A stretch of 61,564 nucleotides of DNA, the filler included, from Stramenopiles sp. TOSAG23-2 (taxonomy: Eukaryota), in the NCBI GenBank assembly GCA_900128395.1. It is 3 parts of 3 records of this genome, joined end to end, with 100 filler letters (N's around TTAATTAATTAA, not from the genome) between each part and the next. Parts side by side here need not be neighbours in the genome. Positions count along the whole stretch, not along the records: positions 1 to 25,681 come from LT649448.1; 2 more parts are not named here. One strand, 5' to 3'. Below, in pieces: positions 19,247 to 41,604 of this stretch. The notes below the pieces were generated by a model. The model saw only the letters and a program-made list of their open reading frames with translations, was not told where the DNA came from and made no database searches. A program made the position numbers and the translations under genes. The stretch's first letter is position 1; each line of letters starts with the position of its first letter.

Positions 19247-20932
19247 TTAAAAATGCTCATCCAACCACTCACAAAAGGAATCCTCCATATTTTCAATAAC
19301 ATCGCTCTTCGTCTTATTAAAAATCTTTACATCTTCATCATAATTTAAATGATGAAAATCAACTAATTGATCAATCATTTCATCACCATCACTACCGCCA
19401 CCATCACCACTACTATACAATGAATATATTGGTAAAACATTTGATTCTAAATTCAATTGACGTTCTGGCAATAATGCATCAGCTATCAATCTCTTCATAA
19501 ATTCATCATCATCATCATTATTCTGTATTTCATCATTCAAAACAACAACAGATGGATTTGGTGGAAATGTATTTAATAAACATAAAGCAGATAATGCATA
19601 TGATTCTAAATATTTTTGTGCTATAAAACCAAAGATTCCTTCAGCAATAACAATTGGTGGAGTCAAATCCGTAGTATTAGTAAATAAACTTGCTACGCAT
19701 GATTTAATAAGATTACTTTTTCTAGCACCATTTTTTCTACATTCTTTTGTAAATATTGATTCATCTGTAAATACAATTTCTCTTGAAAAAAATCCAAGAT
19801 TTGATATTTTTTCAATTAAATTCATATATTTTTCATTGCGTTTATTTTCTTTTGAAATTAAAAATACAATTGGTGTTGTTCTTTCATAATTTGCTATATT
19901 TAAATTTGGTTCATAATCATATGTAAACGATGACAATTTGTTAACATTGCTGCTGTTGTTATTACTATTAATATATGCTTTGTCTATAGTTTCATCTAAA
20001 TTAAACGCATAATTATCTTTTCCTAAACGAACTTTTGACATAATATCTTCCATTGATTCATTTTGCATTGCATTTATGGAAGTTTGAATCTCTGGTTGAT
20101 CTAAACGTAAAAATGGATTGTATGATAATTCTTCACCCCATGTAGAAGGTATTGTTGGGAGATTTTCATTTCTTTGCTCAATAACCCATCGTAATTTTTT
20201 ATTTAATTCCATATTGCTTGGTTCCACTGCTTGTGCAAATGCTAAATTACTAAGACTATATTCATGGCCACAAAATATTTTCGTATCCAATGGCATATTT
20301 TGCTCTTTAATACGATTCATGCTATGATACATATCTGTTCCTGTACCTTCAAAAAAACGCCCACAACCAGCTAGGAAAATCGTATCTCCTGGAAATAAAA
20401 CTGGAGTTGAACTGCTAGTGGAGTAAAATGTTACATGGCCTTCCGTATGGCATGGTGTAGATATTACATGAAACTTGAAATTATCAATTGTAATTATATC
20501 GCCACCTTTGATCATATCTGTACATCCTGGCGTTGGACCAGCATCATCTGGACCATAAATTGGCGGCGTTCGAGGAAGGCTATTATTATTATTTGTAGCA
20601 GCAGCAACTAGTTCTTGCAATTCTATATTTCCACACACGTGATCATCATGTTTATGGGTATTTAAAATGGCTATGATATTAATATTGTATTTTTCTGCAA
20701 CTTCATAAATTTTTTTTGCATCAGCTGGATCAACAACAATCCCATTTTTTGTAGTATGATCCATCAATAAATAACTGTAATTATCAGATAAAACTGGTAT
20801 TATAGCAATTTCTTTCGTTGAATTTGTTTCTAAAGAACAAGTAGTTAATTTAGTAGAAAAATATCTTTTATTTTGACGAATAATTTGTTTTGTTATTATT
20901 TTATTATATTTTTTAATGAATGTTTGTAACAT
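19247..20932 (-). CDS. HAGH: Hydroxyacylglutathione hydrolase (glyoxalase II) with mitochondrial-type presequence and extra C-terminal domain
   Basis: DNYSYL, THKHDDH, TPCHTEGH, FPGDTIFLAGCGRFFEG, CGHEY, PTIPST..EEL.YNPFLR motifs; basic N-terminal leader. Confidence 0.92.
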   Translation of the reverse strand: MLQTFIKKYNKIITKQIIRQNKRYFSTKLTTCSLETNSTKEIAIIPVLSDNYSYLLMDHTTKNGIVVDPADAKKIYEVAEKYNINIIAILNTHKHDDHVCGNIELQELVAAATNNNNSLPRTPPIYGPDDAGPTPGCTDMIKGGDIITIDNFKFHVISTPCHTEGHVTFYSTSSSTPVLFPGDTIFLAGCGRFFEGTGTDMYHSMNRIKEQNMPLDTKIFCGHEYSLSNLAFAQAVEPSNMELNKKLRWVIEQRNENLPTIPSTWGEELSYNPFLRLDQPEIQTSINAMQNESMEDIMSKVRLGKDNYAFNLDETIDKAYINSNNNSSNVNKLSSFTYDYEPNLNIANYERTTPIVFLISKENKRNEKYMNLIEKISNLGFFSREIVFTDESIFTKECRKNGARKSNLIKSCVASLFTNTTDLTPPIVIAEGIFGFIAQKYLESYALSALCLLNTFPPNPSVVVLNDEIQNNDDDDEFMKRLIADALLPERQLNLESNVLPIYSLYSSGDGGGSDGDEMIDQLVDFHHLNYDEDVKIFNKTKSDVIENMEDSFCEWLDEHF

Positions 20933-21485
20933 CTTTATGTTTGTAGTAAAATATACGAACTATATATATATATATGTATGTATTAAGTAATAATTTGACG
21001 ATGAAGATAGGAACAAAAAGGGAAGGAGGTTGTACATGCAGAAATTTTTCTGATTTTTCATCTACAAGTACAGAGTATATTGATTTCCATTTTTGTGTCA
21101 AAGTGCCATCGCTAGCTCCGTATTTATTATATTATTATTTTCCTTCGTCGAACAACACTATACTTCTTATATAAATACCTAATATTAATAATTAGAAAGA
21201 TACAAAATATATAAAATCATATAGAAAAATATTATATAAAAATATAAATTGATGGTAGTTTATTTTGCTAATAATATTTAGTTTAAGTTATAATAATTAT
21301 TCGAAAGGAAGAGATACAAATAGATACATAACAATTTTAAGAGAAGAACCACATATTATTTTTATTTTTTCAAATCATTAAATTTATATCTTCTTCATTA
21401 TTTATATATATTCAATTCTTACCCTGCATATATACATATATCGATATATACATTATCGATATATATATATATATATAAATAAAGC

Positions 21486-24215
21486 ATGTTTAAATATATC
21501 TTATCCAAAAGAGTGGTGGTGAAAAATAATGCTGTATTATTTTCTCGTAATAACATTCAATTTTTTTCAACATTACAAAAAAAGAATATAAATAATCTGG
21601 TAATTGATAAAATTAAATCATTAAAACAATCTATGGATAATGCTGTTGTCGGACATACAAATGTAAAAAATGGGATATGCTTAGCATTAATTGCGAAGCA
21701 ACATGTATATATTGAAGGTCCACCAGGTAGTGCAAAAACATTATTAGCGGAAACTACTGCAAATGAAACAAATAGCAAGATATTTTTTACCCAATTACAT
21801 CGTGATACCAGAATTAATGATTTACTTGGTGATGAAATTTTGATACGGGAGACAGATGAGGAAACAGGTGGTGAAATCATAAGGCAAGCCAGTACGCGTG
21901 GTGGTATATTGGATTGCGACATAGCAGTATTGGATGATATTACACGAGCACCAGGCGAAGCATTAAATGTTTTATTCCGAGTCTTGAATGAAAGACGCTC
22001 AAATACAAATGCTATCACGTCGTCATCTTCCACTAAATTTTCTGCTATTCCCTTGAGAACTTGTATTGCTACTGGAAATCCTGCAGATACAGATAAATAT
22101 TACAATGAATCATTAGATCCTGCTTCGTTAGATAGATTCACAATTCAACTTCAACATCATGGTTTAATTGATCGTGGTATGTGGGCAGAAGCTCAGAAAG
22201 TAATTGATTTATATGACCAAGTAGTAGATTTAGAAGATGCGGACGATCATAATAATAATTCAACAAACTTAATCAACGAGGAGGATCCGAATGATGATAA
22301 TAATAATAATGAGGAAAACAACAACTTCTTACAACAATGTACGGAAGTTCACAATTCAATTTCTGTGCCATGCCATGTTAAAAATGGATTGTTAAAATTT
22401 TTACAAATATTAGTAACTGATTACAATTTAGATCATAATAATTCTATATTGTCTGATAGAACATTTTTAGTAAATGCTTTAAAAATTATAAAAGCAAATG
22501 CAATGTTGGATGGACGTGATATTTGTATAATGGAAGATTTATATTGTTTAAATTTATTAACAACATTTCGTGTACCGGTGGAGGTTCATGACCAAGTTGA
22601 TGATATTATAAAACAAATTATTCAACAGCAAGAGGAAGAAGAACAAAGTGATAGCAATAACGATGATGGAACACCGCCAACTACGTTTGGGCATAATAAT
22701 GATGATTCAAATGAAAATAAAGAAATGGCAACGAACGATGCAGACGATAATAAAAAATCGTTTTTTGATGATGATAATAAGAATAATGATGATGATCAAA
22801 TGCAAAATAATGATTCTACAATGCCACAAATGAATTCATCAACCAATGACGAAGATTATGAGGGTGGTTCAAGATCGAAAGGACAATCTGCATTATGGTC
22901 AAGAAGAGATGGCAAAGAAGATGTGGATCCATATAAAAAATCAGATAGAAATGCATTTGATCCTAGGATACCAAATAACAAAGATAATCAAAATCAACAA
23001 CCACAAAAGAAAGATATCAATTTTGATGGCCGTAACGAAACAGAGGAGGAAGATGAAAATAGGAAGAAGAAACTAAAAGCAAAAGAAACAGATAACGATG
23101 CTAACTTAACGGAACACGACAATGATTACAATTCTACTACTGTGAAAGGGATCGAACGGTTGATGGAAGGAATTAGTGGTAAAATACAATATTGTGAACA
23201 TGCACAGAAGGAGAGATCTGTGAGCGGATCACCACGGCAAACAAAATCATCAAAATCGTTAATGGATGTATTAGATAGTCATCCATCTGATCGATATTTA
23301 TGGATAAATAATTTATCCCCTCGTTTACCGCGATCATTTGAACGGATAACACGTAAACGTTCTGGATCTATTGTCATGATTCGAGATATTTCGGGTAGTA
23401 TGGTTGGTTTGCCAGCATTATGGTCAAGTGCTGTTGCTCAGAATGTGATAAACATTGCAAGAAAAAATAAAATGAATATGGGTTATTGTGAATTTAATGA
23501 GAAAGCGTATTTATATAAGAAATATGATGCTTCTATGAAAAAAAAAAATAATAATAAGGATTATGTTCGGCAATCATATCGTAATGATGAAACGTTTGAT
23601 CATGAAGATGGTATTTTTTTCACAAATGATTACCAAAATGTAACTCAATGGGCAAAACAAATACGTAGTGAAGGTACAACAAATTATTCTTCGCCATTGA
23701 AATTAGTATTGGATGAATTTGAAAATCAATTTAATTGGTATGATCATCGTCCTAGTAACAACAACAACATGATGTATGGAAGTAGCAACAACTCCAATAA
23801 TAATTCTCATATTGTCTTATTGACTGATGGTGTGCCAACAGAAGGAGATTTAAAATGTAAAGAGGAGAAGCGAAGGGCAGTTGAACTCGGTGTTAGTATA
23901 CATACCATTTTTATTGATACAGTTTGGGCCTTTGATGTACGAAGAATGTCATCAAAAAACAAAAGTAAACAAGGTAGTACGTATCCAGTTGTTTTAGATG
24001 AGCTTGCTTTACTAACGCAAGGGTTGCAATATCGTGCATCTTTAGATTCCAATGGTACTATAGATGTTTTAAAGCATGAAGCAGGTACTGATCGCTGGAG
24101 CGAAGTTGTAAGCGAAGCAAGACTACGTGGTATGGATCGTGTCGGTGTCATGGCAGGATATGGGTCTCAAAGCCCAGGATATGTAACGCATCCAGTTGTA
24201 AATAAATTTAAGTGA
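21486..24215 (+). CDS. RavA/MoxR-type AAA+ ATPase fused to a C-terminal vWA (MIDAS) domain
   Basis: Walker A GPPGSAKT, Walker B AVLDDI, ATGN, SLDRF, SDRT...IIKANAMLDGR; acidic/Asn linker; DISGS, GTTN and LLTDG MIDAS residues. Confidence 0.88.
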   Translation: MFKYILSKRVVVKNNAVLFSRNNIQFFSTLQKKNINNLVIDKIKSLKQSMDNAVVGHTNVKNGICLALIAKQHVYIEGPPGSAKTLLAETTANETNSKIFFTQLHRDTRINDLLGDEILIRETDEETGGEIIRQASTRGGILDCDIAVLDDITRAPGEALNVLFRVLNERRSNTNAITSSSSTKFSAIPLRTCIATGNPADTDKYYNESLDPASLDRFTIQLQHHGLIDRGMWAEAQKVIDLYDQVVDLEDADDHNNNSTNLINEEDPNDDNNNNEENNNFLQQCTEVHNSISVPCHVKNGLLKFLQILVTDYNLDHNNSILSDRTFLVNALKIIKANAMLDGRDICIMEDLYCLNLLTTFRVPVEVHDQVDDIIKQIIQQQEEEEQSDSNNDDGTPPTTFGHNNDDSNENKEMATNDADDNKKSFFDDDNKNNDDDQMQNNDSTMPQMNSSTNDEDYEGGSRSKGQSALWSRRDGKEDVDPYKKSDRNAFDPRIPNNKDNQNQQPQKKDINFDGRNETEEEDENRKKKLKAKETDNDANLTEHDNDYNSTTVKGIERLMEGISGKIQYCEHAQKERSVSGSPRQTKSSKSLMDVLDSHPSDRYLWINNLSPRLPRSFERITRKRSGSIVMIRDISGSMVGLPALWSSAVAQNVINIARKNKMNMGYCEFNEKAYLYKKYDASMKKKNNNKDYVRQSYRNDETFDHEDGIFFTNDYQNVTQWAKQIRSEGTTNYSSPLKLVLDEFENQFNWYDHRPSNNNNMMYGSSNNSNNNSHIVLLTDGVPTEGDLKCKEEKRRAVELGVSIHTIFIDTVWAFDVRRMSSKNKSKQGSTYPVVLDELALLTQGLQYRASLDSNGTIDVLKHEAGTDRWSEVVSEARLRGMDRVGVMAGYGSQSPGYVTHPVVNKFK

Positions 24216-24484
24216 GAGAGAAATTTTTGTTGTGTTGTTATATAAAAATATAAAATGTACGAATATTGTATCTCTCATATCATATTAAATATCATATGAT
24301 ATACGACGTAAATATTATTAAAGTTATAATGTTTTATAAAAAAAAATACGAGGTCGTATATTAAAATACGAACGTAAAATTAAAAAAAAGATATTATATA
24401 GAATTTATGCAATTAGAATCACATTACTGCAAGTATATAATACCTAATCCAGCTATACCTGGTAATCTAAAATTACGTGTAATT

Positions 24485-40584: not shown

Positions 40585-41604
40585 CTAACCTCCTCCTTGA
40601 TCAAAGTAATTACTAACCATGGATGCAAAACTTGAATAGCCACTAAGATCTGATACCTGTGATTGTTGAGCAATTAATTTGGCAACTAATGCATTTGTCA
40701 ATGATGACATGAAAACAATTTTCAATTCTGGATCTCGCTTGAATAATATACTCAATTCATCAGTATTTATTGATATAAAGGTACACTCGTTTTCAGCTAT
40801 CACCTGTGCCGTCGCTAAAGGGCTCATTTGAATTTCTAATTTATCTTCTATTTTCTTACCATCATCATTGTTTTTCGTGGATTCATCCTTTATGGAATTA
40901 ATTTCTTTCAAAAATGATATTTCTCCAAAAACTGCTCGTGGTGAATCCCCTTTAATTGTTGCAATTTTTTTGCTGCTTTTGTAAACACCAGCTTCCCCTT
41001 TGATCAAAAAGTTTATATATTTATATGGTTTATCTTCTTCAATCAACACTTCGCCTTTATTTAATTCAACCTTTTCACAAAAATCCAATAGTTTATAATA
41101 TTTTCTTGCTGATAAATTGCTTAAATGTCTATCGTATAGATCTAATTCATCACCATCAAAGTTTATTGGCGTTTTATCAAGCAATAGCTCTGTGACTTTA
41201 CCAATATGTAATAGAATAAAAACTGCTCCCCAGGCTATAGCAGGCTTTAGTGGTGGTTTTCTTGTAAAGTTATAATACATGCCGCAGAGTCCACCAGTAA
41301 TGCTACAAGATCTTAAAAACATCATATCACTGCTACTCATACCAATCAAACTAATTAACATACCTGTATTTAAAATCAATACACCAGGTTCCGCATATTT
41401 CATTTGTTTTATCATTTGCACAAAAGATGTAGGATATTGCAATTTCTCCATAGCTTTACCCCCGCCTGTTACTTTTCCAACTCCAAAATTTCTTGTCTTC
41501 GGCTTCAATGTTTTGTTAATTTTTTTAACTATTGGTGAAAAAAATTGATTATAAATTTTACGAGAAGCAGGTTGTTGTGCCATCGTCGAGAAGATACGTA
41601 ACAT
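40585..41604 (-). CDS. Popeye-like membrane protein with cyclic-nucleotide-binding-type domain
   Basis: Three TM helices (SDMMFLR...IAWGAVFILLH) followed by KGEVLIEE...GEAGV...VFGEISF...ATAQV cNMP fold. Confidence 0.75.
   Translation of the reverse strand: MLRIFSTMAQQPASRKIYNQFFSPIVKKINKTLKPKTRNFGVGKVTGGGKAMEKLQYPTSFVQMIKQMKYAEPGVLILNTGMLISLIGMSSSDMMFLRSCSITGGLCGMYYNFTRKPPLKPAIAWGAVFILLHIGKVTELLLDKTPINFDGDELDLYDRHLSNLSARKYYKLLDFCEKVELNKGEVLIEEDKPYKYINFLIKGEAGVYKSSKKIATIKGDSPRAVFGEISFLKEINSIKDESTKNNDDGKKIEDKLEIQMSPLATAQVIAENECTFISINTDELSILFKRDPELKIVFMSSLTNALVAKLIAQQSQVSDLSGYSSFASMVSNYFDQGGG

What the first reader, a model, noticed from the sequence alone, without database searches (positions are those of the whole stretch)
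21486..24215. Single-chain RavA/MoxR AAA+ ATPase-vWA fusion with a mitochondrial-type presequence
Seen: one uninterrupted 909-aa ORF with a basic, acid-free leader (MFKYILSKRVVVKNNAVLFSRNNIQFFST), a single AAA module (GPPGSAKT near 21717, LDDI, SLDRF, SDRT..IIKANAMLDGR), a long acidic/Asn linker and a complete MIDAS vWA (DISGS near 23385, GTT, LLTDG). Known: prokaryotic MoxR ATPases work with a separately encoded vWA partner (E. coli RavA-ViaA, which interact with respiratory complexes). Eukaryotic AAA-vWA fusions (midasin, VWA8) have several AAA modules, and ChlD has a different AAA type. Inference: a bacterial-type chaperone/adaptor pair fused into one gene and retargeted to the organelle, possibly a metalloprotein or respiratory-complex remodeller. 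Walker B has Asp-Asp instead of Asp-Glu, which may alter ATPase activity.
Basis: partly seen in the sequence, partly recalled or inferred. Interest (0 to 1): 0.8.

Follow-up and report, generated by a model that had tools for sequence, protein, structure and literature searches.

The report
Protist organelle-type MoxR AAA–VWA fusion protein
This gene of a marine protist encodes one protein that joins a MoxR-type ATP-driven motor to a metal-dependent adaptor (VWA) domain behind a probable mitochondrial leader; it belongs to an unstudied family shared with uncultured bacteria, so the fusion is old, not new.

Summary
In detail: window 21486-24215 (+) is one open 909-aa frame. It has a basic, acid-free leader, one MoxR-class AAA+ module, an acidic disordered linker and a complete MIDAS VWA domain.

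- **The fusion is not eukaryote-made.** Full-length fused relatives of 628-712 aa occur in uncultured bacteria (Entotheonella, Nitrospinota, Dadabacteria/Thermodesulfobacteriota, SAR324, Myxococcota and others) and in several protist groups.
- **It is not RavA, ChlD, VWA8 or midasin.** It is a separate MoxR subfamily marked by a Walker B Asp-Asp (83 of 84 family AAA domains; 5 of 5 ordinary MoxR controls have Asp-Glu).
- **The leader is probably a targeting signal.** 24 of 28 eukaryote-type relatives carry basic N-terminal extensions of at least 18 aa that bacteria lack. No predictor or localisation data were available.

An unexpected result concerns how the family is encoded. It seems built to supply both an AAA-only and an AAA-VWA protein. 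Bacteria do so either with a conserved A9-A12 slippery run at the domain boundary (a -1 frame in all 24 "split" loci) or with two genes. Some eukaryotes have a separate AAA-only gene. This parallels ChlI/ChlD. The client is unknown.

The parts
21486..24215 (+). Whole ORF, 909 aa plus stop; no intron is needed
   Evidence: A 99%-identical 909-aa protein, P0002, was found in other assemblies. Contigs L092 and L093 are collinear with the window over the gene.
21486..21593 (+). N-terminal extension, aa 1-36, absent from bacterial relatives; probable mitochondrial presequence (inferred)
   Evidence: 7 K/R, 0 D/E, first acidic residue at aa 41. Bacterial proteins start at the conserved helix. pLDDT is below 50 for aa 1-23. 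24 of 28 eukaryote-type relatives have basic extensions of at least 18 aa.
21594..22220 (+). AAA+ alpha/beta core, MoxR class, aa 37-245
   Evidence: Pfam AAA_5, bpMoxR and AAA_3. pLDDT is mostly above 90. Fold match to 2r44 at Z 27.6 and RavA at Z 27.1.
21717..21740 (+). Walker A, GPPGSAKT
   Evidence: G78, P80, G81 and K84 are invariant in 58 of 58 relatives.
21924..21941 (+). Walker B, AVLDDI, with Asp-Asp instead of Asp-Glu
   Evidence: D150 and D151 are invariant in 58 of 58. 83 of 84 family AAA domains have DD and 1 has DN; 5 of 5 ordinary MoxR controls have DE.
22068..22139 (+). Sensor 1 (ATGNP, nt 22068-22082) and arginine finger (LDRF, nt 22128-22139)
   Evidence: N198 is kept in 55 of 58 and R217 in 58 of 58.
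22221..22355 (+). Asn/Asp-rich low-complexity insert between core and lid, aa 246-290
   Evidence: 13 D/E, 0 K/R and 14 N. Low pLDDT at aa 256-267. Absent from bacterial relatives.
22356..22661 (+). Helical lid subdomain, aa 291-392, with sensor 2 LSDRT at nt 22449-22463
   Evidence: Pfam AAA_lid_8 at aa 307-356. R325 is invariant in 58 of 58. Helices at aa 296-391.
22662..23150 (+). Acidic, Asn-rich disordered linker, aa 393-555. In core-clade bacterial relatives the A9-A12 run lies at the start of this region; the window gene has no such run.
   Evidence: pLDDT below 50 for aa 399-522 and 529-547. Composition. The window DNA at 22560-22740 has no A run longer than 4.
23151..24095 (+). Conserved pre-VWA segment (G..PR...LPR) plus the VWA domain, aa 556-870. 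MIDAS motifs: DISGS 23385-23399, GTTNY 23673-23687, LLTDG 23817-23831.
   Evidence: Invariant columns. Domain model and fold matches to VWA/MIDAS structures. Pfam VWA is weak.
24096..24212 (+). C-terminal tail, aa 871-909, with GYGSQSPGYVTHP at nt 24156-24194, shared only with the nearest eukaryote-type relatives
   Evidence: Alignment (P0003, P0005, in part P0006), with P0007 read. Absent from bacteria. Low pLDDT at aa 883-903.

Best explanation
This is an intact, expressed nuclear gene of a marine protist. It encodes a member of an uncharacterised subfamily of MoxR-class AAA+ ATPases in which the motor and its VWA/MIDAS adaptor form one chain.

The subfamily is shared with a narrow set of uncultured bacteria and with several protist groups. 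The fusion therefore predates this lineage.

The 36-residue basic leader most likely sends the protein into the mitochondrion (inferred).

Inside the organelle the AAA module should assemble into a ring. Walker A, the arginine finger and both sensors are intact. The Walker B Asp-Asp probably makes hydrolysis slow or regulated (inferred).

The VWA domain is tethered by about 160 disordered acidic residues. It should hold an acidic residue of a client protein through its MIDAS metal while the ring remodels that client. Known MoxR/VWA pairs do this for metal-cofactor insertion or enzyme reactivation (inferred by homology).

Relatives almost always provide both an AAA-only and an AAA-VWA product. 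The working ring is therefore probably mixed, as in ChlI/ChlD. Whether this organism has an AAA-only partner gene is unknown, and so is the client.
For: **Gene and domains**
- establish the ORF and its domains.
- It has a eukaryotic nuclear context.
- Contigs from four poly(A)/oligo-dT RNA-library runs of three studies lie on both halves of the ORF at 95% identity or more.

**The family**
- 118 cluster representatives score E <= 1e-30 among 1.84 billion proteins.
- 248 bacterial genomic relatives were confirmed, and the 79 loci kept are all metagenome-assembled genomes or uncultured isolates by record title.
- Source-labelled eukaryotic members come from dinoflagellates, diplonemids, a choanoflagellate and MMETSP transcriptomes.

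**Trees**
- The family is separated from ordinary MoxR proteins by a fully supported long branch (SH-aLRT 100).
- The window protein sits in a supported four-member eukaryote-type clade in both the AAA tree and the VWA tree.
- The eukaryote-type sequences lie outside the bacterial core clade, apart from one long-branch row (P0092) in the third tree.

**Targeting**
- 24 of 28 eukaryote-type relatives have extensions of at least 18 aa, and in all 24 K+R exceeds D+E.
- 9 of those 24 contain R-x-[FYLIV]-[SA], against 12% of control windows.
- Ortholog P0003 reads RSF|S at that position.
- Within the window, only 5 of 20 long ORFs have an acid-free start of 35 residues or more.

**Two products**
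- All 24 'split' bacterial loci place the VWA part in the -1 frame, overlapping the end of the AAA ORF, directly after an A9-A11 run.
- 24 fused-only loci keep an A9-A12 run at the same place, and both shifted frames stop within 0-24 codons.
- The 13 loci with a fused gene plus a separate AAA gene, and one truncated locus of that kind, have no run.
- About 55 of the 70 A/T runs of 9 or more in 1.1 Mb lie at this one site.
- One diplonemid species has both an AAA-only protein (P0099) and a fused one (P0093); they are sister groups at SH-aLRT 97.
- Five transcript-sized contigs hold AAA-only ORFs with basic leaders and the DD motif; four have stops on both sides and the fifth runs off its 5' end.

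**Mechanistic precedent**
- NorQ/NorD and CbbQ/CbbO (PMC9976466, PMC5437159, passages read).
- A chlD frameshift that gives two chelatase subunits from one gene (PMC9227772, abstract and introduction read).
Against: - No targeting predictor could be run, and no localisation data exist.
- The window's own leader lacks an arginine at -2/-3 of the likely cleavage site (QFF|ST), and its amphipathic moment is modest (0.45).
- 4 of 28 eukaryote-type relatives have extensions under 18 aa.
- Only 13 of those 28 are labelled eukaryotic by a source. The rest are inferred from sequence features.
- In algae the same kind of leader could be part of a plastid signal.
- No client is indicated. Bacterial neighbours (YceG, ProB, GST, SDR, peptidase S58) are lineage-specific, and none is shared across phyla.
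- An AAA-only partner was not seen for the window's own clade, and the genome is not held.
- The window gene has no slippery run.
- The effect of Asp-Asp on ATPase activity is untested.
- The A-run states come from metagenome-assembled genomes, where homopolymer errors are possible. However, all 24 shifts go the same way.
- The trees used the quick search, with many long branches and an unresolved backbone.
Confidence: 0.6

Rival explanations
1. Same protein and same biochemistry, but not imported into an organelle. The N-terminal extension would be a regulatory or membrane-proximal tail, and the protein would act in the cytosol.
For: The window leader has no R-2/R-3 cleavage motif and only a modest amphipathic moment. 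4 of 28 relatives have extensions under 18 aa. No predictor or experiment is available.
Against: Extensions recur in 24 of 28 eukaryote-type relatives and are basic in all 24, while bacterial proteins have none. The extensions evolve fast while the mature part stays 65-71% identical to P0003. The AAA-only eukaryote-type ORFs carry similar leaders.
Confidence: 0.2
2. It is a chelatase-type motor, a ChlD analogue. Together with an AAA-only ChlI-like subunit it would drive a ChlH/CobN-like catalytic subunit that inserts a metal into a tetrapyrrole.
For: The architecture is the same as ChlD: AAA, acidic linker, MIDAS VWA. ChlD-like clusters are the nearest by language-model features. Automatic pipelines name some relatives 'Mg-chelatase subunit ChlD'. 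The family also uses the two-product logic published for chlD (PMC9227772).
Against: The AAA module is MoxR-type, not chelatase-type. Pfam Mg_chelatase scores 16.5 bits, below its 20.3 cut-off, over 38 residues only, and the lid matches AAA_lid_8. Fold Z is 27.6 and 27.1 for MoxR and RavA against 20.8 for BchI. None of the conserved neighbour clusters that were annotated in the 79 bacterial loci is a ChlH/CobN-like gene. Not every neighbour was annotated.
Confidence: 0.07
3. It is a remnant of a bacterial MoxR-vWA conflict or defence system (the 'bpMoxR' ternary systems).
For: Pfam bpMoxR (PF20030) scores 55.4 bits, above its cut-off of 27.
Against: Those systems are defined by a beta-propeller fused to the vWA component plus further effector parts (PMC7159879, passage read). 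No such domain appears in Pfam or in the model. No conserved third gene lies beside the bacterial relatives. PADLOC gives no match for P0001 or for bacterial P0012. AAA_5 scores higher than bpMoxR.
Confidence: 0.04
4. It is bacterial contamination, or a very recent transfer that is not really part of the protist's biology.
For: The closest named relatives are bacterial.
Against: It is flanked on both sides by eukaryotic genes in one contig. Its composition matches its neighbours. It carries Asn-rich inserts and a leader that bacteria lack. It lies outside the bacterial clades in both trees. It is present in poly(A)-selected RNA libraries.
Confidence: 0.01

Closest known systems
RavA-ViaA (E. 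coli MoxR ATPase with its VWA partner)
   Same: MoxR-class AAA+ core and lid. The fold match to RavA 3nbx is Z 27.1 over 297 aligned residues, and Pfam AAA_lid_8 matches. The VWA has a MIDAS site.
   Different: The NCBIfam RavA model scores 29.9 bits against a cut-off of 681, and no RavA-specific C-terminal family was listed. Here the motor and adaptor are one chain, Walker B is DD rather than DE, there is a eukaryotic leader, and the sequence match to RavA is only E 1e-5.
NorQ-NorD and CbbQ-CbbO (MoxR/VWA enzyme-maturation and reactivation pairs)
   Same: The expected working principle: a hexameric MoxR ring, a VWA adaptor whose MIDAS binds an acidic patch on the client, and ATP-driven remodelling (PMC9976466 and PMC5437159, passages read).
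   Different: Those are two separate proteins, reported as six motors to one adaptor, and they are encoded beside their client genes. Here the two are fused, or made from one gene by slippage, no client gene lies nearby, and no CbbQ-type family was listed.
Mg-chelatase ChlD with ChlI (and CobT/CobS)
   Same: The domain order: AAA, acidic linker, MIDAS VWA. A matching AAA-only subunit exists. One gene can give both subunits by programmed frameshifting (PMC9227772, abstract and introduction read). ChlD-like clusters are the nearest by language-model features.
   Different: The AAA family differs. No ChlH/CobN-type partner was seen. The fused copy keeps all catalytic motifs in 58 of 58 relatives.
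VWA8 (animal mitochondrial AAA-VWA protein) and midasin/Rea1
   Same: Eukaryotic proteins that join dynein/MoxR-related AAA modules to a C-terminal MIDAS VWA. VWA8 is mitochondrial (PMC10743472, passage read). Rea1 and MDN1 MIDAS domains are among the fold matches of the VWA model.
   Different: Those have two to six AAA modules and about 1900-5000 residues. This protein has one module and 909 residues, and no relative of 1592-4545 aa scored E <= 0.001 (weak evidence).
dnaX tau/gamma-type recoding (recalled, not read here)
   Same: An A-rich slippery run at a domain boundary lets one gene give a long and a short product. The bacterial relatives have A AAA AAA or A AAA AAG in frame.
   Different: It is a different protein family. 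In half of the bacterial loci the shifted frame gives the long product, not the short one. It is not demonstrated experimentally, and the run is absent from the window gene.

Membership tests
MoxR class of AAA+ ATPases | A single AAA+ module that matches MoxR family models | tested here: met
   AAA_5 67.2 bits (cut-off 22), AAA_3 40.5 bits (cut-off 27), bpMoxR 55.4 bits (cut-off 27), AAA_lid_8 23.9 bits (cut-off 22.8).
MoxR class of AAA+ ATPases | The fold is closest to solved MoxR proteins | tested here: met
   2r44: Z 27.6, rmsd 3.5, 303 aligned. RavA 3nbx: Z 27.1, rmsd 5.5, 297 aligned. MCM: at most 22.3. BchI: 20.8.
MoxR class of AAA+ ATPases | Canonical catalytic motifs: Walker A, Walker B D-E, sensor 1, Arg finger, sensor 2 | tested here: inconclusive
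   All motifs are present and invariant, but Walker B is D-D in 83 of 84 family domains, against D-E in 5 of 5 ordinary MoxR controls. The effect on activity is unknown.
MoxR class of AAA+ ATPases | Functional link to a VWA/MIDAS protein | tested here: met
   The VWA is fused in the same chain. It is an adjacent or overlapping ORF in 24 bacterial loci.
RavA (NCBIfam NF010054, equivalog) | Score at or above the curated cut-off over the full 498-position model | tested here: not met
   29.9 bits against 681, with only positions 5-176 matched.
ChlD/BchD (Mg-chelatase D subunit) | AAA module of the Mg_chelatase family | tested here: not met
   PF01078 scores 16.5 bits, below its 20.3 cut-off, over aa 53-90 only. 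BchI fold Z is 20.8, about 6-7 below MoxR and RavA.
ChlD/BchD (Mg-chelatase D subunit) | Domain order AAA - acidic linker - MIDAS VWA, with an AAA-only partner subunit | tested here: met
   The architecture is shown. AAA-only partners occur in bacteria and in some eukaryotes. None is shown for the window organism.
ChlD/BchD (Mg-chelatase D subunit) | Works with a ChlH/CobN catalytic subunit | not testable with these tools
   No genome is held for the window. None of the annotated conserved neighbour clusters in the bacterial loci is of this type.
VWA8 / midasin | Several tandem AAA modules before the VWA | tested here: not met
   There is one AAA module, and no long relatives were found.
bpMoxR beta-propeller ternary conflict systems (PMC7159879) | MoxR domain matches PF20030 | tested here: met
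   55.4 bits against a cut-off of 27, covering positions 2-165 of 205.
bpMoxR beta-propeller ternary conflict systems (PMC7159879) | A beta-propeller fused to the vWA component, plus further system genes | tested here: not met
   No propeller family appears in Pfam and none in the model's secondary structure. No conserved third gene was found. PADLOC gave no match.
VWA domain with MIDAS | D-x-S-x-S, T and D motifs on a VWA fold | tested here: met
   The five residues are invariant in 58 of 58 relatives. The domain model matches CMG2, CLCA1, BatB, integrin-I and Rea1-MIDAS structures at E 1e-6 to 1e-4. The Pfam VWA score by itself is below its cut-off.
Mitochondrial matrix-targeting presequence | An N-terminal extension relative to bacterial homologues that is basic and free of acidic residues | tested here: met
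   36 aa, 7 K/R, 0 D/E.
Mitochondrial matrix-targeting presequence | Arginine at -2/-3 of a processing site; amphipathic helix | tested here: inconclusive
   The window reads QFF|ST, with no Arg at -3. Ortholog P0003 reads RSF|S, and 9 of 24 extensions carry the motif. The maximum helical moment is 0.45.
Mitochondrial matrix-targeting presequence | A positive call by a trained predictor, or experimental localisation | not testable with these tools

The most novel reading that the evidence does not exclude
The family is an old organelle machine, present across eukaryotic supergroups and lost from animals, fungi and plants. It is built like ChlI/ChlD but from MoxR parts. Its working ring mixes AAA-only and AAA-VWA subunits, and the need for both products is so strong that it has been met in three ways:
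- programmed slippage on a conserved A9-A12 run in bacteria, with either the long or the short form as the shifted product;
- gene duplication in other bacteria;
- gene duplication in eukaryotes.

In protist mitochondria it would mature or repair a metal-containing respiratory enzyme.
Probability: 0.25. Interest if true: 0.8.

Novelty: new variant of a known kind. Interest (0 to 1): 0.6.

Why it matters
MoxR/VWA pairs are widespread but have few known clients, and in eukaryotes only the giant relatives (midasin, VWA8) have been studied.

A compact single-module MoxR-VWA protein with an organelle-type leader, found in dinoflagellates, diplonemids, a choanoflagellate and this marine protist, would add an unrecognised factor to mitochondrial protein maintenance in lineages outside the model organisms.

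The invariant Asp-Asp Walker B offers a natural test of how that position tunes an AAA+ motor.

The conserved A-run in the bacterial relatives is a directly testable candidate for recoding. It sets the ratio of motor-only to motor-plus-adaptor subunits, and it is an independent parallel to the chlD case.

Tried and rejected
- **Own genome:** not held, so no search for an AAA-only paralog or a client was possible.
- **Complex prediction:** the window's AAA part (aa 37-395) with its VWA part (aa 550-880) gave no verdict (score 0.00, controls not run), and the tool did not use the alignment. This says nothing either way.
- **Search among proteins of 1592-4545 aa:** none at E <= 0.001. By the tool's own note this is weak evidence.
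- **Bacterial gene neighbourhoods:**
  - No neighbour is conserved across phyla.
  - Clusters c3 and c30, which looked shared, are Arg/Ala/Gly-rich antisense ORFs of high-G+C DNA with no Pfam match, so I discarded them.
  - My ORF caller lost the target gene in 8 of 79 loci for the same reason.
- **RNA:**
  - No contig of the four runs covers 21200-21643, 22754-22975 or anything beyond 24220.
  - No contig bridges the two halves.
  - Holes in contig data prove nothing.
  - One joint, 21975 to 23538, has only 20 letters on its shorter side, and I treated it as a chimera.
- **PADLOC:** no match.
- **Rank 1 of the VWA fold search:** a chain of an entry titled as a parvovirus capsid. I did not interpret it.
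- **Literature:**
  - No paper describing this family, its eukaryotic members or a frameshift in MoxR-VWA genes turned up in the held library.
  - The searches were MoxR, VWA, mitochondria, eukaryotes; MoxR, mitochondrial proteome; ATPase RavA, mitochondri; AAA, von Willebrand, Dictyostelium, MoxR; MoxR, ChlD, fusion, vWA; MoxR, protist; MoxR, horizontal gene transfer, eukaryot, AAA; MoxR, frameshifting.
  - Subscription journals and supplements were not searchable. Snider & Houry 2006 and Wong & Houry 2012 were seen only as references.


Full report
**The observation**

Window 21486-24215 (+) is a single ATG-started open frame of 909 codons. AT-rich non-coding DNA precedes it.
- GPPGSAKT at 21717
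- AVLDDI at 21924
- LDRF at 22128
- LSDRT at 22449
- DISGS at 23385
- GTTNY at 23673
- LLTDG at 23817

The first 36 residues hold 7 K/R and no D/E. The stretch aa 376-560 holds 47 D/E and 27 N.

The window is eukaryotic nuclear DNA of about 29-38% G+C. The neighbouring ORFs encode Ku, eIF3e, eIF2B-epsilon, a kinesin, an Arm-repeat protein, a RasGEF/VPS9 protein and a glyoxalase II.

**Domains**

Pfam gives AAA_5, bpMoxR, AAA_3 and AAA_lid_8 above their cut-offs. VWA is just below its cut-off (21.4 against 23.8 bits). Mg_chelatase is below its cut-off over 38 residues only. NCBIfam RavA scores 29.9 bits against a cut-off of 681.

An AlphaFold2 model was built from a 58-sequence alignment. Confidence along the chain is as follows:

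| Region | Residues | Confidence |
|---|---|---|
| Leader | aa 1-23 | below 50 |
| AAA core | aa 30-245 | confident |
| Lid | aa 275-392 | confident |
| Linker | aa 399-547 | below 50 |
| VWA | about aa 556-870 | confident |

The AAA part aligns best to these solved structures:

| Structure | Z | rmsd | Aligned residues |
|---|---|---|---|
| MoxR protein 2r44 | 27.6 | 3.5 | 303 |
| RavA 3nbx | 27.1 | 5.5 | 297 |
| MCM proteins | at most 22.3 | | |
| BchI 1g8p | 20.8 | | |

Foldseek gives the same order at the top.

A separate model of aa 550-880 finds VWA/integrin-I/MIDAS structures: CMG2, CLCA1, BatB, and Rea1 and MDN1 MIDAS domains. In the 58-sequence alignment the Walker A, Walker B, Arg-finger, sensor-2 and all five MIDAS residues are invariant.

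**The family**

A word-indexed search gave 70 relatives. An exhaustive HMMER scan gave 1842 proteins at E <= 0.001, 298 at <= 1e-10 and 118 at <= 1e-30.

The full-length relatives fall into two kinds:
- Bacterial proteins of 628-712 aa that start directly at the first conserved helix.
- Longer proteins with N-terminal extensions.

Thirteen of the 28 extended proteins I examined carry a eukaryotic source label or share a cluster with one that does. The labels are MMETSP, and EukProt entries of two dinoflagellates, two diplonemids and a choanoflagellate. The language-model atlas adds an all-eukaryote, mostly diatom cluster named 'ATPase RavA family protein'. It places ChlD-like clusters nearest by features.

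In one genome per species of 185,579 prokaryotes, 248 stretches encode a relative. The 79 loci kept are all metagenome-assembled genomes or uncultured isolates by record title: Entotheonella/Tectimicrobiota, Nitrospinota, Poribacteria, Abyssobacteria, Dadabacteria/Thermodesulfobacteriota, SAR324, Lambdaproteobacteria and Myxococcota.

So the fusion was not made in the eukaryote. Fused MoxR-vWA genes in prokaryotes were already mentioned in print (PMC3495828, passage read).

**Trees**

The AAA tree has 89 rows, a quick search and five ordinary MoxR paralogs as outgroup. It separates the family by a branch of support 100 and length 5. The window protein joins P0003 (support 99) and then P0005 and P0006 (support 100). 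The eukaryote-type rows lie outside the bacterial core clade (42 rows, support 93), but the backbone is unresolved. One origin of the eukaryotic genes is not excluded and not shown.

The VWA tree has 71 rows. It gives the same four-member clade (support 95) and two eukaryote-type groups: 10 rows at support 99, and 13 rows at support 88 that include the window. The two halves therefore share one history.

All 84 family AAA domains but one have Asp-Asp in Walker B. The five ordinary MoxR controls have Asp-Glu.

**The leader**

Relative to the bacterial start, 24 of 28 eukaryote-type relatives have extensions of at least 18 aa. In all 24, K+R exceeds D+E. Nine of the 24 contain R-x-[FYLIV]-[SA], against 12% of control windows.

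The window's extension (36 aa) lacks that arginine: it reads QFF|ST. Its 65%-identical ortholog P0003 reads RSF|S.

Inside the window, 5 of 20 long ORFs have acid-free starts of 35 residues or more. Among them is the neighbouring glyoxalase II, which ends its leader with RYF|ST.

Import into mitochondria is the most likely reading, but it is an inference. No predictor and no localisation data were available.

**Expression**

Contigs from four poly(A)/oligo-dT RNA-library runs of three studies, all marine, lie on the AAA half and on the VWA half at 95% identity or more. Pieces on the AAA half include 21686-21792, 21846-22086 and 22241-22577. Pieces on the VWA half span 23037-24220. None bridges both halves.

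Full-length 99%-identical copies occur in many other assemblies, on contigs of about 2.8-3.5 kb.

**How the family is encoded**

This is the unexpected part. By my ORF call the 79 bacterial loci split as follows:

| Layout | Loci |
|---|---|
| One fused gene | 31 |
| AAA ORF followed by a VWA ORF ('split') | 24 |
| Fused gene plus a separate AAA-only gene downstream | 13 |
| A truncated locus of that same kind | 1 |
| AAA only | 2 |
| Unreadable by my caller | 8 |

In all 24 split loci three things hold:
- The VWA frame is the -1 frame.
- It is already open 22-202 nt before the AAA stop.
- The switch point follows an in-frame A AAA AAA or A AAA AAG run of 9-11 A. The zero frame then stops after 0-8 codons, while the -1 frame stays open for 318-400 codons.

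Twenty-four of the 31 fused-only genes keep an A9-A12 run at the same codon position, the 'KKK' that ends the lid. There both shifted frames stop within 0-24 codons.

The run persists in loci of up to 64% G+C whose other lysines are mostly AAG. About 55 of the 70 A/T runs of 9 or more in the 1.1 Mb examined lie at this one site.

None of the 14 loci with a separate AAA gene has the run. In those loci the fused copy's AAA is the more diverged one.

Random homopolymer errors would shift either way. Twenty-four of 24 shift the same way.

The simplest reading is that the family needs both an AAA-only and an AAA-VWA protein. It obtains them by slippage on the run or from two genes. [quoted passage not shown] It also recalls dnaX (recalled, not read). 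It is not demonstrated experimentally.

**Eukaryotes**

The window gene has no such run. Other eukaryotes, however, have AAA-only members:
- A choanoflagellate ORF marked complete by its source (P0088).
- A diplonemid species with both an AAA-only protein (P0099) and a fused one (P0093). These two are sisters at support 97.
- Five transcript-sized metagenome contigs with AAA-only ORFs that have basic leaders and the DD motif. Four have stops on both sides. The fifth, L152, runs off its 5' end.

Whether the window organism has such a partner cannot be checked, because its genome is not held.

**Mechanism**

*Shown:* a MoxR-type AAA+ module with intact nucleotide-binding and trans-acting residues, a long disordered tether, and a MIDAS VWA domain.

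*Inferred from NorQ/NorD, CbbQ/CbbO and RavA/ViaA (PMC9976466, PMC5437159, passages read):* the AAA modules form a ring, the MIDAS metal binds an acidic residue of a client, and ATP turnover remodels the client.

*Inferred from the encoding pattern:* the ring is mixed, as in ChlI/ChlD.

*Unknown:* the client. Bacterial neighbours give no hint. The effect of Asp-Asp on hydrolysis is also unknown.

**Classification**

It is a MoxR-class protein, but:
- It is not RavA.
- It is not ChlD.
- It is not VWA8 or midasin, since it has one module.
- It is not a beta-propeller conflict system, since it has no propeller, no third gene and no PADLOC match (PMC7159879, passage read).

Eight literature searches found no description of this family or of recoding in MoxR-VWA genes. 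Subscription journals and supplements could not be searched.

I rate it a new variant of a known kind. It is moderately interesting in the window itself. It becomes more so because of what the relatives reveal.

Noticed in passing
L001-L079 (bacterial relatives), e.g. L061:8891-9128, L028:8918-8930, L022:1494-1505: A conserved A9-A12 run sits at the AAA-lid/linker boundary in 50 loci: 24 fused, 24 'split' and 2 AAA-only. In all 24 split loci the VWA part is in the -1 frame and overlaps the AAA stop. The run is absent from the 14 loci that have a separate AAA gene. This is a candidate for programmed slippage that gives two products.
   Followed up: yes
L115:47-1120, L137:23-1168, L142:48-1169, L144:38-1189, L152:1-1344; proteins P0088, P0099 with P0093: Eukaryote-type AAA-only members of the family have basic N-terminal leaders and the DD Walker B. 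Four of the five contig ORFs have stops on both sides; L152 runs off its 5' end. One diplonemid species has both an AAA-only and a fused form.
   Followed up: partly
window 19247-20932 (-): The divergent neighbour is a glyoxalase II (HAGH_C, Lactamase_B) with a similar acid-free basic leader that ends RYF|ST. It also has a C-terminal extension of about 250 aa without a Pfam match.
   Followed up: no
window 40585-41604 (-): This 339-aa ORF also starts with a basic leader; its first acidic residue is at position 53. It may be another organelle protein.
   Followed up: no
window 24156-24194 (+): The C-terminal motif GYGSQSPGYVTHP is shared with P0003 and P0005, and in degenerate form with P0006 and P0007. 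It is absent from bacteria and from the other eukaryote-type group. Its function is unknown.
   Followed up: partly
window 24280 onward; L092, L093: Two other contigs, 98.5-98.7% identical over the gene and 99.5% identical to each other, follow the window up to 24280, which is 65 nt past the stop. They then differ from it; L093 continues into window 3643-1 in reverse. This is either a structural variant or an assembly join in one of them.
   Followed up: partly
protein P0092: This relative has Asn-rich low-complexity sequence and degenerate motifs (GPTGSSKT; Walker B Asp-Asn). It is the only one of 84 family AAA domains without Asp-Asp. It may be a ChlD-like inactive copy.
   Followed up: no
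window 23557 (run X1): Two RNA-library contigs end here and continue with an A-rich loose end of 30 letters, inside the VWA low-complexity insert. This could be internal priming, a chimera or an internal poly(A) site.
   Followed up: no
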